A stretch of 63,322 nt of DNA, filler included, from Anaerolineae bacterium (GCA_029262755.1; 6 parts of 6 records of this genome joined end to end with filler, not necessarily neighbours in it); one strand, 5' to 3'. Numbered from the whole stretch's first letter, positions 18,729 to 24,559 are shown. Numbers and translations: made by a program. Notes: generated by a model from the letters alone, not told the origin.

Positions 18729-19028
18729 CTAACTTTGCCGATCTCGATCCGCACGGACGTCCCGGAGCACGGCTTCAGCAAGCGGCACGGTGTGGGCCCC
18801 CCGCCGCTCGCGAATGGACTGCCCAAGGGCGATCGCGCGATCCAGCGCGTCAGTTCCTTCGCCCGAGGCTTGCTGCGTCAGACGCTCATACTGCGCCACC
18901 GACATCACCACCACCTTCGGTCGCCCTCCGCGCTCGACGATGAAGGTTTCGTCTGTTTCCACGTCGCGGCGCATCAACTCACCGAAGCGCGCCGGCGCCT
19001 CTGTCGCCGTCCACATAACGACCATCAT
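18729..19028 (-). CDS. Phd/YefM family antitoxin (orphan)
   Basis: TATEAPARFGELM..FIVERGGRPKVVVMSVAQYERL; RBS GAAGGGAG; no toxin gene follows. Confidence 0.75.
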   Translation of the reverse strand: MMVVMWTATEAPARFGELMRRDVETDETFIVERGGRPKVVVMSVAQYERLTQQASGEGTDALDRAIALGQSIRERRGAHTVPLAEAVLRDVRADRDRQS

Positions 19029-19122
19029 CGCTCTCCCTTCGGATCCGCGTGTCGTCGACACCACGTGTGGCACCGTTCATCAATCGATACGCTACTCGAT
19101 GGATCGAAAGTACACAACGTGC

Positions 19123-19782
19123 CTACGCTCCGCGAACGACCAACCCCAGCGCGAGCGCCCACATGACGACGGCGATCGTCGCATCGAGAACGCGCCACGC
19201 GCCCGGCCGCGCGAAGACCGGCGCCAATCGCTTCGCGCCGAAGGCCAGGCCGAAGAACCACAGCACCGAGCCCGCCATCGCGCCCGCCGCGAATAGCCAT
19301 CGATCAGGCAGTGGCAACCGCCCGCCGACGCCGCCAAGCAGCACCACGGTGTCGAGATACACGTGCGGGTTGAGCAGGCTGAAGCCCAGCGCCATCAGGA
19401 CGGCGTCGCGTAGTCCGGTCGCCGATGCGTTCCCCTCGGCAGGACCACCCGCGCCGCCCACCCCCGCGTCCAACGCCTCGTTCCCACGAACGGCCGACCA
19501 CATCGCGCGGGCACCGTACACGACAAGGAACAACGCTCCGCCTAACGTCACCCAGCGCAGCGCCTCGGGACGCTCGCCGAGAAGCGCGCCCATGCCCGCC
19601 ACGCCGAGGGCAATGAGGCTGACGTCGCTGAGCGTGCTCACCGCCGCGGTAACAAAGACCCGGTCGTGGCGCAGCCCCATGCGCAGCACGTGCGCGTTCT
19701 GCGCGCCGATCGCGACGATGAGCCCGAGGCCGAGGCCGAAGCCTTCGAGGAGGGGGCGGAGGGTTAAGGGTAGGGGCGACAC
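19123..19782 (-). CDS. LysE/ArgO family amino acid exporter
   Basis: GLIVAIGAQNAHVLRMG, LLNPHVYLDTVVLLG, WRVLDATIA. Confidence 0.93.
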   Translation of the reverse strand: MSPLPLTLRPLLEGFGLGLGLIVAIGAQNAHVLRMGLRHDRVFVTAAVSTLSDVSLIALGVAGMGALLGERPEALRWVTLGGALFLVVYGARAMWSAVRGNEALDAGVGGAGGPAEGNASATGLRDAVLMALGFSLLNPHVYLDTVVLLGGVGGRLPLPDRWLFAAGAMAGSVLWFFGLAFGAKRLAPVFARPGAWRVLDATIAVVMWALALGLVVRGA

Positions 19783-20005: not shown

Positions 20006-20629
20006 ATGGCCAAACAACTCGTGTTCCGCCTGGACGACGAAGAGATCGCCCTGGACATGGAGAAGGTCGATCGCAGCAAGCTCTACGGCTACAAGGATCG
20101 GCTCGTGCTCGACGAGGACGGCGAGCCTTGCGAGCTCGTCACGCTCGCGGGCGATGGGCGCACGATGGTCGGCAAGGGCGGCATCGCGATGGCCTATGTC
20201 TCGGCCGACCGTGAGTGGTGCAACAAAGCTGACCTGACGCCGATCGACCTCGACGGCGAGGTAATGCGGCCCGTGCCCTCCACCTTCAACGCGCCCGTCG
20301 TGCTCGATCAGACGGCGGGCATCCAGGACTATCTCGACCACGACATCCGCTCGGTCTACCTGCTCACCAGCGAGGACGAGCTCGGTGCTCTACGCGCGCG
20401 TCTCGAAGCCGGCGCGATCTTCCGCTTCGACTTCTCGTATCGCGGGGGCTTGGAGGCCGACGCGGCCTTCCTGCTGACGGGCAGCGACGGCAACGTATTC
20501 ATGGCCATCGGGCGGCCGGCGACCACGACGTACGTCGGTCTCCAGGAGAGCGCGGGGATGGCCGCCCAAGCGGATTCGGAAGACGATGAAGATGAAGACG
20601 AGGATGACTTCGGCTTCGGTGTGATTTAG
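20006..20629 (+). CDS. Hypothetical protein, putative divergent Ku-like protein A with acidic tail
   Basis: RBS GGAGG/GGAG, coding-like codon usage; the pattern SVYLL..GALRARLEAGAIFRFDFSYRGG..AFLL resembles the Ku core C-terminal half (by eye only). Confidence 0.6.
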   Translation: MAKQLVFRLDDEEIALDMEKVDRSKLYGYKDRLVLDEDGEPCELVTLAGDGRTMVGKGGIAMAYVSADREWCNKADLTPIDLDGEVMRPVPSTFNAPVVLDQTAGIQDYLDHDIRSVYLLTSEDELGALRARLEAGAIFRFDFSYRGGLEADAAFLLTGSDGNVFMAIGRPATTTYVGLQESAGMAAQADSEDDEDEDEDDFGFGVI

Positions 20630-20650
20630 AACGCGGGGAGAACGGCGACG

Positions 20651-21406
20651 ATGGGCGAGCTCAACATCAGCAACAGCGCCGGACGCGACGCGGTGGTCAG
20701 CACGGACGCCGACGCGCCGCCGCCGCGCGTGCGGTGGCTGGACGACCTGGGCCGGCAGGCCTTCCCGACGCGCATCCTCAAGTCCGAGATCGGCCACGAC
20801 TACCCCGCGCTGCTCGAAAAGCACGGCGATCCCGAGGCCGTGGCGCAGGCGCTCGTCACGGGCGACCCCGAGCTCGACATCGAGACCTTCGGCTCCTTCC
20901 TGACCGAGACGTCGCGGGTGTACATCGACCAGCACGGCGAGATGGCCCACCGGGTGAAGCACGTGGAGATCATCCGCAACCCGGACGGCACCGAGCGTGA
21001 GCGCCGGCCGCGCGCCCGCGTACGTCAGAACATCGCGGCGCCGGACCCGCTGCTCTGGAGCGGACGCATGATCGACAAGGCCGAGGCCTGCCGTCGTTTC
21101 GTCTTCTCCGCCCGGCTGCAGCTGACCCACGTCAACGGCCTGACCTATGACTTCCTCTACGCGATGGCCAAGGAGCTGGAGGAGAAGGACGCGCTCATGC
21201 TCGTGGGCGCCGGCCCGAAGTCGAACCAGCCGCTCATCGTGCGCAACGGCGGCATCCCCCATCGCGGCTTCCTGGAAGGGCGCACGGACGGCGACCGCTA
21301 CCTGCTCGTGCTGCACCTGTCGATGCAAGAGCTCAAGGCGCCCGAGCCCGGCGACGAGGATGAAAACGGGGACGAGGGCGGGGACGGGGACGCCGACAAT
21401 GGGTAG
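20651..21406 (+). CDS. Hypothetical protein, putative divergent Ku-like protein B with acidic tail
   Basis: RBS GGGGAG; FVFSARLQL..GLTYDFLYAMAKELEEKDALMLV..LIVRNGG..FLEGR..YLLVLHL resembles Ku core; overlaps ligase start by 8 bp. Confidence 0.6.
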   Translation: MGELNISNSAGRDAVVSTDADAPPPRVRWLDDLGRQAFPTRILKSEIGHDYPALLEKHGDPEAVAQALVTGDPELDIETFGSFLTETSRVYIDQHGEMAHRVKHVEIIRNPDGTERERRPRARVRQNIAAPDPLLWSGRMIDKAEACRRFVFSARLQLTHVNGLTYDFLYAMAKELEEKDALMLVGAGPKSNQPLIVRNGGIPHRGFLEGRTDGDRYLLVLHLSMQELKAPEPGDEDENGDEGGDGDADNG

Positions 21407-23060
21407 CGCGAACCTCGTCGATCCGGGCCGCATCAAGGTCCGCATGGGCGCCTACGGTACCGCACAGTCCACGGCGCTGGTGGAGACGGTGCTCTTCAGC
21501 CGCGTGCAGGACTACCGGCGCCAGCTGAGCGCCCGGATGATCCCGCTGGACCCGGCCGACATCCGGCGCAAGATCGCGACCAGCGAGTACCACGTCAGCC
21601 GCAAGCTCGACGGCGAGTTCACGGTGCTGCTCTACAACCACGGTGAGGCGGTTTCGGTGAACTCCGGCGGCACGGTGCGCATCGGCCTGCCGTGGATCGA
21701 GGAGGCGGCGAAGCGTCTGGACGAGGCAGGCCTGCTGGAGGCGATGCTCGTCGGCGAGCTGCACATCGAGCGCGACGACGGGATGCGGGCGCGCATCCAT
21801 GACGTGATCTCCGCCGTTCGCACCCCGGGCAGCCAGGACGATCTGGACCGCGCGCACTTTGCGGTCTTCGACCTGATGTCGGTCAACGGCGAGCGTTGGA
21901 CGCAGCCTCTGCGCGAAACGCGCGCACGGATCGAGGAGCTCGTCGGTGGCGGCGAGCGCATCGCGCCGGTCGAGGGCCAGTGGGTGCAGGACGCGCGCGG
22001 CATCGAGGAACTGTACAAGACCTGGGTGAACGGCGAGGAGTGCGAGGGCATCGTCGTACGCGGCGACAGGGGCGGCCTGTACAAGATCAAGCCGCAGCAC
22101 ACGCTGGACGTCGTGGTCGTCGGCTTTAGCGAGGGCCAGGGTGACCGCGAGGGCATGCTGCACGACCTGCTCGTCGGCGTCCTGCGCGAGGACGGTTCGA
22201 CCCACCTGCTGACCCGCGTGGGCGGCGGCTTCACCGACGAGCAGCGCCGCGACTTTCTGCTGCAGCTCAAGGAGCTGGTCGTCGAAAGCGACTACGCGGC
22301 CGTCAACACCGCCCACGTCGCCTACCAGATGGTACGGCCGTCCTGGGTCATCGAGATCACGGGCCTGAGCATCCTGGCCAAGACCACCCGCGGCGGCCCC
22401 ATCAACCGCATGGTCCTGGACTGGGACGCGCCCGCCGACACCTACCGCGTGATCCGCCGCCTCCCGCTGGCCAGCGTGATCTCGCCGCGCTTCGTCCGCC
22501 GGCGCGAGGACAAGCAGGCCCACCCGGACGATGCCTCGATCCGCCAGATCGCCGACGTCGTCGAGGTCCCGCTCTCCGACCAGGAGGCGGGCGGGCTGCG
22601 CCCCCAAAGCAGCACGATCCTGCGCCGCGAGGTCTACACCAAGGAGCTCAAGGGCGCGCTCATGGTGCGCAAGCTCGTGATGTGGAAGACGAACAAGGAA
22701 AGCGAGGAGGAGTTCCCCGGCTACGTGGTCCATTACACGGATTACAGCCCCAACCGCAAGACCCCCCTCAACCGCGACATCCGCGTCTCGAGCTCACGCG
22801 AACAGATCGACGACCTGTGGGACGAACTCCTCGACAAGGCCGTCAAGGGCGGCTGGGTCCGCCACGCGGGCAGTGGTGGTGGCGGGGTCGCGAGCGAGAG
22901 CGAAGGCAAAACGAAGACGGACGGTGCGGCGAAGAAGCCCGCCGCCAAACCGAAGGCGAAGTCCAAGACCAAGTCCGGCGAGAAGCCCAGCGCGACGTCC
23001 GATTCCAAGCCCAAGCCCCCCACAAAGCGCAAGCCCAAAGCACCCAAGGCCGACGGATGA
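21399..23060 (+). CDS. ATP-dependent DNA ligase with extra C-terminal (WGR-like) domain and Lys-rich tail
   Basis: Motif I RKLDGE, III LVGELH, IIIa FAVFDLM, IV EGIVVR, V YKIKP..LDVVVVG, OB fold RVGGGF..VRPSWVIEI, VI PRFVRRREDK. Confidence 0.9.
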   Translation: MGSANLVDPGRIKVRMGAYGTAQSTALVETVLFSRVQDYRRQLSARMIPLDPADIRRKIATSEYHVSRKLDGEFTVLLYNHGEAVSVNSGGTVRIGLPWIEEAAKRLDEAGLLEAMLVGELHIERDDGMRARIHDVISAVRTPGSQDDLDRAHFAVFDLMSVNGERWTQPLRETRARIEELVGGGERIAPVEGQWVQDARGIEELYKTWVNGEECEGIVVRGDRGGLYKIKPQHTLDVVVVGFSEGQGDREGMLHDLLVGVLREDGSTHLLTRVGGGFTDEQRRDFLLQLKELVVESDYAAVNTAHVAYQMVRPSWVIEITGLSILAKTTRGGPINRMVLDWDAPADTYRVIRRLPLASVISPRFVRRREDKQAHPDDASIRQIADVVEVPLSDQEAGGLRPQSSTILRREVYTKELKGALMVRKLVMWKTNKESEEEFPGYVVHYTDYSPNRKTPLNRDIRVSSSREQIDDLWDELLDKAVKGGWVRHAGSGGGGVASESEGKTKTDGAAKKPAAKPKAKSKTKSGEKPSATSDSKPKPPTKRKPKAPKADG

Positions 23061-24151
23061 GCGATCATCTCTCAATCATCGCGGACCAGTGGCGCGAGCG
23101 GGCCGGCGAGCTCGGGCATTGGGCGATGCGCGCCTTGGTCAACCGGACGGATGTCTGGGGGCGCTACCTCAACTTCAAGCAGCGCAAGGTCGACGCGGAC
23201 GGCGTAGTGCACAACGCGATCACGGCGCCCTTCAAGCAGGAGCGCGGCAAGATCTTCTTGCAGGAAAGCTCGCTCGTGAAGCACTTTCAGGCCAAGAAGG
23301 AAGGCGAAGCGCTCGGCCTACACAGCATGAGCGCTCACCGCAGCTCGCGCTGGATGGCGATCGACATCGACCTGCACGACTCGCTGGACGATTCCGTCAC
23401 GCCGGAGGGCAATTTTGCCGCGGCGCTCCACTGGTGGAACGCGCTGCGCGAGATGGGCCTCGACCCCCTGCTCATGGACTCCAACGGCCGCGGCGGCTTC
23501 CACCTGCTTGTCCTCTTCGCCGAGCCCATGACCACCGAGAGCGTCTACTACTTCCTCAAACGCTTCGTGGCCGACTACGAGATGCGCGGCTTGGACCAGA
23601 TGCCCGAGACCTTCCCGAAGCAGCTACGCGCCAAGGCCTACGGCAGCTGGCTGCGGCTTCCCGGCCGCCACCACAGCCGCGCCCATTACACCCGCGTCTG
23701 GAACGACGACCCGGCCGAGGACGAGCCCTGGCTCGAGGGACACGGCGCCATCGACCGCATCCTCGAGATCGGTCAGGCGCAGCCCGAGGTGCTCGTGGCC
23801 ATCGGCCTGGAGCCGGCCATCGAGACGATCTGCCTCGACTTCGACGGCGTGCTCCACTCCTACGTCTCCGGCTGGCAGGGCGAGGCGAACATCCCCGACC
23901 CGCCCATCCACGGCTCCGACAAGGCCGTTGCCCGCCTGCGCAAGCGCTACCGCATCGTCGTCCACTCGGCCCGCTGCTTCAACAAGGAGGGACGCGATGC
24001 CGTCCGCGCCTGGCTCAAGCAGCACGGCATCGAGGTCGACGATGTCTGCGAGCACAAGCCCCCGGCCAAGGTCTACGTCGACGACCGCGGCGTGCGCTTC
24101 GACGGCGATTGGCAAGAGACCATGGTGGCGATCGACGCGTTTCGGCGGTAG
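23057..24151 (+). CDS. Archaeo-eukaryotic primase (AEP/PrimPol) domain fused to HAD-superfamily phosphatase
   Basis: AEP motif I WMAIDID, motif II SNGRGGFHLLV, ETFPKQ..WLRLPG; HAD ICLDFDGVL..VHSAR..KPPAKVYVDDR; ATGA overlap with ligase. Confidence 0.85.
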   Translation: MSDHLSIIADQWRERAGELGHWAMRALVNRTDVWGRYLNFKQRKVDADGVVHNAITAPFKQERGKIFLQESSLVKHFQAKKEGEALGLHSMSAHRSSRWMAIDIDLHDSLDDSVTPEGNFAAALHWWNALREMGLDPLLMDSNGRGGFHLLVLFAEPMTTESVYYFLKRFVADYEMRGLDQMPETFPKQLRAKAYGSWLRLPGRHHSRAHYTRVWNDDPAEDEPWLEGHGAIDRILEIGQAQPEVLVAIGLEPAIETICLDFDGVLHSYVSGWQGEANIPDPPIHGSDKAVARLRKRYRIVVHSARCFNKEGRDAVRAWLKQHGIEVDDVCEHKPPAKVYVDDRGVRFDGDWQETMVAIDAFRR

Positions 24152-24211: not shown

Positions 24212-24559
24212 GTGCGCTACCCCGTAACCCCCGACGGCCGCTACTTCGTCGTACGCGGACGCCTCTGGCGCCGAAGCGACCCCTCGATTCCCGAGGACGA
24301 GCGCCGCAAGCTCGTGGGCGAGCTCATGCGCCACCGATCCGCGGTGGGCCACGCGAAACGCGCCGGCGACGCAGCGGCGGAGAAGGAGGCCCGCCGCGGG
24401 GTGCACGCGGCCAAGGTCGCCCTCGGCGAACGCGGCCCCGTTTGGTGGCAAGACGGCGCGCCGGATTTCAACCGCTACCTGGTCAAGAACTCTCCCTACC
24501 AGGCGTGGTTCGACGACCTGGACGTGAAGGGGCCAACGGGTGCAGCACCGGGTCGATAG
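24212..24559 (+). CDS. Small conserved hypothetical protein
   Basis: TPDGRYFVVRGRLWRRSDP..AKVALGERGPVWW recalls a widespread uncharacterised family; GTG start with GGAG. Confidence 0.75.
   Translation: MRYPVTPDGRYFVVRGRLWRRSDPSIPEDERRKLVGELMRHRSAVGHAKRAGDAAAEKEARRGVHAAKVALGERGPVWWQDGAPDFNRYLVKNSPYQAWFDDLDVKGPTGAAPGR

What the first reader, a model, noticed from the sequence alone, without database searches (positions are those of the whole stretch)
20006..21406. Two tandem divergent Ku-like proteins: a possible bacterial Ku heterodimer
Seen: the 207-aa and 251-aa proteins have little obvious identity to each other. Both end in a strand-helix-strand-strand pattern: (Y/Q)L..helix ending LE..hydrophobic strand-R-(N)GG..FL..DG..hydrophobic strand. 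This parallels the Ku core C-terminal half (roughly YYL.P..Y.LL..AL......V.R..L). Established: characterised bacterial Ku is mostly homodimeric, while eukaryotic Ku70/80 is a heterodimer. Inference: a duplicated, diverged pair may form an obligate heterodimeric ring. The similarity is judged by eye and is remote.
Basis: inference. Interest (0 to 1): 0.82.

Follow-up and report, generated by a model that had tools for sequence, protein, structure and literature searches.

The report
Hidden two-subunit Ku-like ligase operon
Two unannotated neighbouring genes encode proteins that are each predicted to fold like Ku, the ring that grips broken DNA ends; they always travel together and almost always sit in front of a dedicated DNA ligase, so they probably form an unrecognised DNA break-joining kit.

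Summary
The two ORFs are real: A is 207 aa and B is 251 aa. They head a translationally coupled operon, A-B-ligase-(AEP polymerase + HAD phosphatase).

Sequence methods see no Ku. There is no Pfam, NCBIfam, PADLOC or PDB-sequence match, and profile-profile comparison with Ku is no better than decoys.

AlphaFold2 models give a different answer. A has pLDDT 88.9 and B has 79.5. In two independent structure searches, the best matches of both models are solved Ku structures, covering 158-177 residues. SPOC barrels come next and cover only about 100-113 residues.

Comparative genomics:
- The order A-B-ligase holds in 63 of 63 complete loci.
- In a 201-genome sample, A and B occur in the same 6 genomes with the same copy numbers.
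- In 5 of 5 genomes where B has no adjacent A, A is encoded elsewhere.

The most likely reading is a very diverged two-subunit Ku working with its own ligase. The heterodimeric ring and DNA-end binding are inferred, because the complex predictor was unavailable.

Canonical Ku is not clearly excluded: it is present in 3 of 26 cassette genomes. This scan had noted similar cassettes on other DNA. My literature searches found no paper describing it.

The parts
20006..20629 (+). Gene A, 207 aa. Predicted Ku-core fold in residues 1-177, followed by a disordered acidic tail that ends in a conserved h-D-F-x-M-h C-terminal motif (DDFGFGVI in this window).
20651..21406 (+). Gene B, 251 aa. Predicted Ku-core fold in residues 1-232 with a helical insertion at about 47-80, followed by a short acidic tail.
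21399..23060 (+). ATP-dependent DNA ligase, 553 aa. It has nucleotidyltransferase and OB domains, a conserved extension at about residues 374-490 with no Pfam match, and a Lys/Pro-rich tail. Its ATG overlaps the stop codon of B.
   Evidence: Pfam DNA_ligase_A_M and DNA_ligase_A_C. Best NCBIfam hit NHEJ_ligase_lig, 62 bits against a cut-off of 227.75. PHROG DNA ligase 1.7e-24. PDB sequence hits are to archaeal and Lig1-type ligases. Junction and tail. The extension has no Pfam hit.
23057..24151 (+). AEP primase-polymerase fused to a HAD phosphatase, 364 aa. Its ATG overlaps the ligase stop codon (ATGA).
   Evidence: Pfam AEP-TOTE at 28.2 bits and HAD_SAK_2 at 30.7 bits, both just above their cut-offs, plus a weak LigD_Prim-Pol hit. 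PADLOC PrimPol. PHROG primase and polynucleotide-kinase phosphatase. Junction. A homologue lies within 7 kb in only 6 of 89 loci.

Best explanation
A and B are two extremely diverged members of the Ku-core fold: a beta-barrel plus long bridge arms. They work as a pair, most likely as a Ku70/80-style heterodimeric ring that threads onto a broken DNA end. They hold that end for the dedicated ATP-dependent ligase encoded immediately downstream. In this genome the operon also supplies the other two LigD-type activities as a separate fusion protein: an AEP gap-filling polymerase and a HAD 3'-phosphatase in place of LigD's PE domain. Together these would make a complete end-joining kit that Pfam cannot see. 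The conserved acidic tail of A, with its terminal D-F-x-M-h motif, is proposed to be the flexible tether that recruits the ligase or the polymerase, as the C-terminal arm of bacterial Ku recruits LigD.

Shown here: the genes, their coupling, their co-inheritance and the predicted folds. Inferred: the heterodimer, the ring, DNA-end binding, the role of the tail and the end-joining function.

For: Linkage. The order A-B-LIG on one strand holds in 63 of 63 loci that carry all three genes at full length. Median gaps are 42 nt and -4 nt. Pairwise distances of the three proteins correlate at r = 0.91-0.93. The order is kept even where B is only 35-44% identical to the window's B.

A and B are needed together. 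Of 201 genomes sampled from one phylum, 6 have A and the same 6 have full-length B, with matching copy numbers of 3, 2, 1, 1, 1 and 1. One further genome has only a 55-residue B fragment. Six loci lack an adjacent A. In 5 of 5 of those genomes that I tested, one full-length A gene lies elsewhere.

Context parallels ku-ligD. Canonical planctomycete ku genes are followed by ligase genes in the same way. The ligase's best NCBIfam hit is the NHEJ ligase domain. The AEP and HAD domains are in the same operon here.

Ku-like appendages. Some B homologues carry Lys/Ala-rich PAKKA-like tails. Such tails are known on M. smegmatis Ku (PMC3553676, abstract seen in the listing).
Against: There is no sequence evidence for Ku. 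PF02735 matches 0 of 104 A members and 0 of 66 B members even at E <= 10. hhalign against a 15-sequence Ku alignment gives probability 0.2%. Decoys reach the observed score in 33 of 41 runs for A and 6 of 41 for B. One nominal B-Ku hit, P = 0.033, did not hold up: 32 of 100 decoys reached it.

The structural scores are moderate. TM-scores are 0.36-0.50 and rmsd is up to 12.7 A in the rows printed. SPOC domains score nearly as high in Z. Parts of B, residues 21-45 and 71-100, have pLDDT of about 58-71.

No complex was modelled, so neither a ring nor an A-B interface has been seen. Both proteins are acidic, with pI 4.1 and 5.0. Both appear to lack the C-terminal 'sling' of mycobacterial Ku: the alignments end near Ku residue 174-193.

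The cassette does not clearly replace Ku. Canonical Ku is present in 3 of 26 cassette genomes, against 32 of 194 genomes without the cassette.

The ligase is not adjacent in 6 of the first 80 loci that have room downstream. The AEP-HAD gene is nearby in only 6 of 89 loci.
Confidence: 0.6

Rival explanations
1. A and B each form their own homodimeric Ku-like ring. The result would be two different rings with separate tasks, not one heterodimer.
For: Characterised bacterial Ku proteins are homodimers (PMC12784962, passages read). In 4 loci B sits directly before the ligase without A (L011, L045, L052, L071). Sequence similarity between A and B is marginal.
Against: A and B co-occur in the same genomes with matching copy numbers. 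A is present elsewhere in 5 of 5 genomes where it is not adjacent to B. Their divergence is correlated, r = 0.91. The two proteins have complementary appendages: an acidic motif tail on A and basic tails on some B homologues.
Confidence: 0.15
2. A and B are SPOC-like beta-barrel adaptor proteins. They would bind peptides or proteins, for example to regulate or localise the ligase, and would not encircle DNA.
Against: Ku chains rank first in both searches and align 158-177 residues, against 100-113 for SPOC. This means the long arm region is matched as well. No SPOC entry appears among the printed Foldseek rows. The arm region of A, residues 28-105, is modelled at pLDDT 89-98. The gene order mirrors ku-ligD.
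Confidence: 0.12
3. The operon is an RNA-repair or conflict (anti-phage or mobile-element) system rather than chromosomal DNA end joining. In that case A and B would bind RNA or foreign nucleic-acid ends.
For: The AEP domain matches the 'TOTE conflict system' model and the HAD domain matches the 'Swiss Army Knife RNA repair' model. The ligase also matches Pfam RNA_ligase weakly, 24.3 bits against a cut-off of 27. The cassette is sporadic: 7 of 201 and 5 of 301 sampled genomes. It is scattered over several phyla at 51-63% identity and is multi-copy in G082.
Against: There is no PADLOC hit for A, B or the ligase. No relative of B was found in IMG/VR viral contigs. Flanking genes are varied housekeeping genes, not defence or mobility genes. 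The ligase has the OB domain and its best hits are DNA ligases.
Confidence: 0.08

Closest known systems
Bacterial two-component NHEJ: Ku homodimer plus LigD (M. tuberculosis, B. subtilis; PDB 8v53, 9i91, 9ig8, 9vnq)
   Same: The predicted core fold of both A and B matches. The end-binding gene lies directly upstream of an ATP-dependent ligase. Polymerase (AEP) and 3'-end-cleaning activities are available. Some B homologues carry Lys-rich tails, like the PAKKA repeats of M. smegmatis Ku.
   Different: There are two different subunits instead of one. Sequence similarity to PF02735 is undetectable. The C-terminal helical 'sling' seems to be missing. A ends in an acidic tail with a D-F-x-M-h motif. 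The ligase is a separate, divergent family (62 bits against a cut-off of 227.75 for the NHEJ ligase model) with its own C-terminal extension. The polymerase is a separate protein fused to a HAD phosphatase, and there is no PE domain.
Putative Ku3-Ku4 heterodimer of Sinorhizobium meliloti (PMC6379672)
   Same: Two co-operonic, co-required Ku-type genes are proposed to form a eukaryote-like heterodimer in a bacterium.
   Different: The paper (passages read) treats Ku3 and Ku4 as ordinary Ku orthologues that work with LigD4. A and B are invisible to PF02735 and have their own ligase family.
Eukaryotic Ku70/Ku80
   Same: It is a heterodimer of two diverged paralogues with the same core fold. Human Ku80 and Ku70 chains are among the top structural matches.
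   Different: A and B consist of the core only. They have no vWA domain, no SAP domain or Ku80 C-terminal domain, and no DNA-PKcs context.
SPOC domain (e.g. PHF3, FPA, SHARP, RBM15)
   Different: SPOC covers only about 100-113 residues and lacks the bridge arms. SPOC proteins bind phospho-peptides, not DNA ends, and have no ligase linkage.

Membership tests
Ku (Pfam PF02735, Ku core) | Sequence match to the family HMM above the gathering score | tested here: not met
   No PF02735 hit for A or B at E <= 1. 0 of 104 A-family members and 0 of 66 B-family members hit at E <= 10. The same HMM finds Ku in 32 of 201 sampled genomes.
Ku (Pfam PF02735, Ku core) | Profile-profile similarity to aligned Ku sequences | tested here: not met
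   hhalign probability is 0.2%. Decoys reach the observed score in 33 of 41 runs for A and 6 of 41 for B. A nominal P = 0.033 was not robust: 32 of 100 decoys reached it.
Ku (Pfam PF02735, Ku core) | Ku core fold: beta-barrel with long bridge arms | tested here: met
Ku (Pfam PF02735, Ku core) | Dimer that closes a ring around duplex DNA | not testable with these tools
Only monomers were modelled.
Ku (Pfam PF02735, Ku core) | Preferential binding to DNA ends | not testable with these tools
   This needs EMSA or a similar assay.
Ku (Pfam PF02735, Ku core) | Genomic linkage to an ATP-dependent DNA ligase | tested here: met
   The order A-B-LIG holds in 63 of 63 complete loci. The ligase cluster is present in 82 of 89 loci.
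Heterodimeric Ku (Ku70/80-type) | Two distinct paralogous subunits that are both required | tested here: inconclusive
   Co-occurrence is strict: the same 6 of 201 genomes with the same copy numbers, and A elsewhere in 5 of 5 genomes where it is unlinked. Paralogy has only weak support (P = 0.016). No interaction test was possible.
SPOC domain | Stand-alone beta-barrel of about 120-170 residues without bridge arms | tested here: inconclusive
LigD (multidomain NHEJ ligase) | LIG domain fused to an AEP POL domain and a PE phosphoesterase domain | tested here: not met
   The ligase has only the nucleotidyltransferase and OB domains. Its scores are far below the LigD model cut-offs: 47-62 bits against 227-373. 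The AEP domain is on a separate protein fused to HAD, and no PE domain was found.

The most novel reading that the evidence does not exclude
Bacteria from several phyla carry a complete end-joining pathway that sequence searches cannot detect. In it, an obligate Ku70/80-like heterodimer (A+B) loads on DNA ends. Through A's conserved acidic D-F-x-M-h C-terminal peptide it recruits its own ligase family and, in some genomes, an AEP-HAD polymerase/phosphatase. In some lineages the ligase is fused to a classical AAA unfoldase. That unfoldase might strip the trapped ring from repaired DNA, as p97 does for eukaryotic Ku. If true, heterodimeric Ku and ATPase-driven Ku removal would not be eukaryotic inventions.
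Probability: 0.4. Interest if true: 0.85.

Novelty: new variant of a known kind. Interest (0 to 1): 0.72.

Why it matters
Surveys of bacterial NHEJ count genomes by Ku and LigD sequence models. A Ku-fold pair that those models cannot detect, with its own ligase family, would mean end joining is more widespread and more varied than those surveys report. The pattern scan found the cassette in at least 551 stretches of the one-genome-per-species collection, at a frequency of about 2-3% in the two phyla I sampled.

It would also provide a natural, minimal two-subunit Ku for studying why eukaryotic Ku is a heterodimer. The proposed recruitment peptide is easy to test. The compact ligase, polymerase and phosphatase set could be useful for genome-editing repair in bacteria.

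Tried and rejected
- Sequence routes to Ku all failed: Pfam, NCBIfam, PADLOC and PHROGs, PDB sequence profiles, hhalign and decoy tests. Searches timed out, the latter after its first comparison.
- The ESM Atlas was of no use. It lacks the exact B sequence. Its own models of homologues are poor, with pLDDT 0.32 and 0.46, and no hit was usable.
- Replacement of Ku was rejected as an argument. Ku is present in 3 of 26 cassette genomes against 32 of 194 others, which is no clear difference.
- Genome-wide association with the AEP-HAD gene is weak. A strong match was found in 1 of the 7 B-positive genomes and in none of the 194 others. Two of those others have partial matches.
- A phage origin found no support: no relative of B in viral contigs.
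- A WGR-like tail on the ligase found no support: no Pfam WGR hit in the window's ligase extension or in 11 homologues.
- No promoter or terminator signal stands out.
- Expression could not be assessed: no RNA holder was listed, and read laying was not used.
- Literature searches found no description of this cassette. This covers the held library only.
- The listing of cluster members gave no organism names.
- The window's own genome is not held. Its Chloroflexota-like assignment comes only from earlier scan notes and was not checked.

Full report
THE GENES. The flagged interval holds two + strand ORFs. A runs from 20006 to 20629 (207 aa) and B from 20651 to 21406 (251 aa). A GGAGG lies 9 nt before A's ATG and a GGGGAG lies before B's ATG. 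B's stop codon overlaps the ATG of a 553-aa ORF (21399-23060). That ORF's stop overlaps the ATG of a 364-aa ORF (23057-24151). The four genes therefore form a translationally coupled operon.

The third gene is an ATP-dependent DNA ligase. It matches Pfam DNA_ligase_A_M and DNA_ligase_A_C. Its best NCBIfam hit is the NHEJ ligase domain, but at 62 bits against a cut-off of 227.75. It also matches the PHROG DNA ligase family at 1.7e-24. It carries a C-terminal extension with no family match and a Lys/Pro-rich tail.

The fourth gene fuses an AEP primase-polymerase (AEP-TOTE, with a weak LigD_Prim-Pol hit) to a HAD phosphatase (HAD_SAK_2, plus a PHROG match to the polynucleotide-kinase phosphatase). 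The operon thus holds the three activities of LigD, differently packaged, preceded by two unknown proteins.

WHAT SEQUENCE METHODS SAY ABOUT A AND B. They say nothing.
- There is no Pfam, NCBIfam, PADLOC or meaningful PHROG hit.
- There is no PDB sequence hit with family profiles.
- PF02735 (Ku) matches 0 of 104 A-family members and 0 of 66 B-family members even at E <= 10.
- I built a Ku alignment from 15 of the 38 planctomycete Ku matches that the same HMM found in 32 genomes. hhalign of A or B against it gives probability 0.2%.
- Block-shuffled decoys reach the observed score in 33 of 41 runs for A and 6 of 41 for B.
In my decoy test, 32 of 100 decoys matched or beat the score.

A and B are not detectably similar by BLASTP (E = 2.6). 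hhalign gives P = 0.016-0.018 over a collinear stretch of up to 126 columns. The local score beats 41 of 41 decoys, but the signal sits in the middle of the proteins.

WHAT STRUCTURE PREDICTION SAYS. A was modelled from a 104-sequence alignment at 23-71% identity, built with the help of an exhaustive profile search that found 751 representative clusters. The model has pLDDT 88.9 and pTM 0.74. B was modelled from 53 sequences and has pLDDT 79.5 and pTM 0.59. Residues 21-45 and 71-100 of B are the weak parts.

Foldseek against the PDB gave only Ku in the rows printed.
- For A the top hit is the B. subtilis Ku core bound to DNA (9vnq_A, E = 6.9e-6). Mycobacterial Ku and human Ku80/70 follow. There are 22 hits at E <= 1e-3.
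- For B the top hits are mycobacterial Ku (8v53, 9i91, 9ig8) and Ku80, starting at E = 6e-5. There are 38 hits at E <= 1e-3.
- TM-scores are modest, 0.36-0.50. I would expect this for monomer models whose long arms are free.

An exhaustive VIA-align search of 48,161 chains, which does not use Foldseek, agrees.

Both proteins therefore have the Ku/SPOC barrel and, beyond it, the arm region that separates Ku from SPOC. The alignments stop near Ku residue 174-193. The C-terminal 'sling' described for mycobacterial Ku (PMC12784962, passages read) therefore seems to be absent.

COMPARATIVE GENOMICS. B has 2372 word-indexed homologues and A has 288, all of them unnamed or 'hypothetical'. A pattern scan of one genome per species found at least 551 stretches encoding B. 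The 80 best are mostly Planctomycetota, with Hormoscilla and Oscillatoria, Leptospiraceae and Verrucomicrobiota also present.

By clustering ORFs across 89 loci, the ligase is present in 82 and A in 78. Other neighbours vary: a MerR-TPR protein in 9 loci, the AEP-HAD gene in 6, and sulfatase, peptidase or RecQ genes in a few. In the 63 loci with all three genes at full length, order and strand are A-B-LIG in 63 of 63. Median gaps are 42 nt and -4 nt. Pairwise divergences correlate at r = 0.91-0.93. The order persists in distant copies, where B is 35-44% and A is 24-37% identical to the window's proteins.

With family HMMs, 84 of 93 loci have A. Three of the 9 misses are contig ends and 6 are real. 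In four of those six, B sits directly before the ligase, and in two B stands alone. In 5 of 5 of these genomes that I tested, one full-length A gene lies elsewhere. The sixth, L047, was not tested.

In an even sample of 201 genomes from the phylum of G001, B occurs in 7 and A in 6. The six with full-length B are the same six that have A, with matching copy numbers (three copies in G082, two in G101). The seventh B hit is a 55-residue fragment. In a second phylum sample, 5 of 301 genomes have B, and all five have A-B-LIG. The cassette is therefore rare, patchy and co-inherited, and A and B go together even when unlinked. This is the strongest indirect argument I have that they work as a pair.

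WHAT DOES NOT FIT NEATLY.
- Canonical Ku is not excluded. It is present in 3 of 26 cassette genomes against 32 of 194 without the cassette. 'It replaces Ku' is therefore not shown.
- Both proteins are acidic, with pI 4.1 and 5.0.
- The AEP-HAD partner is usually not nearby. It gave a strong genome-wide match in only one of the seven B-positive genomes of the sample.
- The AEP and HAD models carry 'conflict system' and 'RNA repair' labels. However, there is no PADLOC hit and no viral relative of B, and the flanking genes are housekeeping genes.

APPENDAGES THAT SUGGEST A MECHANISM. A ends in a disordered acidic run followed by a conserved terminal h-D-F-x-M-h motif. The motif is present in 112 of 115 near homologues and 90 of 107 diverse representatives. 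This is the design of a tethered recruitment peptide. Some B homologues carry long Lys/Ala-rich tails like the PAKKA repeats of M. smegmatis Ku (PMC3553676, abstract only). Nine of the 11 'longer' hits also carry SAM domains. In three distant cassettes the ligase is fused to a classical AAA ATPase. In eukaryotes the AAA ATPase p97 is reported to remove trapped Ku; I saw only search listings and abstracts for this. An analogous role here is speculation.

COMPARISON WITH WHAT IS KNOWN. In function and layout this looks like bacterial Ku-LigD end joining. As family members, A and B fail the sequence definition of Ku (PF02735) and meet the fold definition on predicted models. Ring formation and end binding are untested. 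A bacterial Ku heterodimer has been proposed before from genetics, for S. meliloti Ku3-Ku4 (PMC6379672, abstract and discussion passages read). The paper treats those as ordinary Ku orthologues. My six literature searches found no description of this cassette.

Earlier AI notes of this scan describe similar 'hidden two-subunit Ku-like' cassettes on other DNA. Sequence look-ups found no close copy of this window's proteins among them. I treated those notes as leads, and the fold test reported here is my own.

VERDICT. The Ku-like reading is supported by predicted fold, and the partnership is supported by co-occurrence. The heterodimeric ring and the end-joining function remain inferences. I class this as a new variant of a known kind of system.

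Noticed in passing
L081:1894-5022(-), L083:497-3625(-), L085:7761-10886(+): In distant copies of the cassette the ligase is a 1041-1042-aa protein fused at its C-terminus to a classical AAA ATPase (PF00004 plus AAA_lid_3). It could be a ring-removal or remodelling activity.
   Followed up: partly
P0391, P0393, P0394, P0396-P0401 (homologues of B): Nine of the 11 'longer' B homologues carry a C-terminal SAM domain flanked by Lys-rich tails. P0392, P0040 and P0087 have PAKKA-like Lys/Ala tails without a SAM domain.
   Followed up: partly
G138:C68:45526-46894; G128:C94:11583-14090; G067:C2:34979-36282; G022:C252:9417-10707; G048:C223:40251-41562: Five sampled genomes of the phylum of G001 carry two canonical PF02735 Ku genes next to each other. 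These are candidate ordinary Ku heterodimers.
   Followed up: no
G082 (L081, L082, L083): One genome carries three separate A-B-ligase cassettes on three short contigs, and G101 carries two. The reason for the multiple copies is unknown.
   Followed up: partly
window 22518-22868 (ligase residues about 374-490) and 22869-23057: The ligase has a conserved extension of about 115 aa with no Pfam match, followed by a Lys/Pro-rich tail. The extension is a possible docking or DNA-sensing domain.
   Followed up: partly
L070:9462-10637 and 8 other loci: A MerR-type HTH plus TPR protein follows the ligase on the same strand in 8 of the 9 loci of this cluster. It may be a local regulator.
   Followed up: no
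window 24212-24559 (+): A 115-aa basic protein (pI 10.1) lies just after the operon. It has no family hit and was not found in the related loci.
   Followed up: no
window 18729-19073 (-): A Phd/YefM-type antitoxin gene has no obvious toxin gene beside it. A LysE-like ORF lies at 19123-19782 (-), between it and gene A.
   Followed up: no
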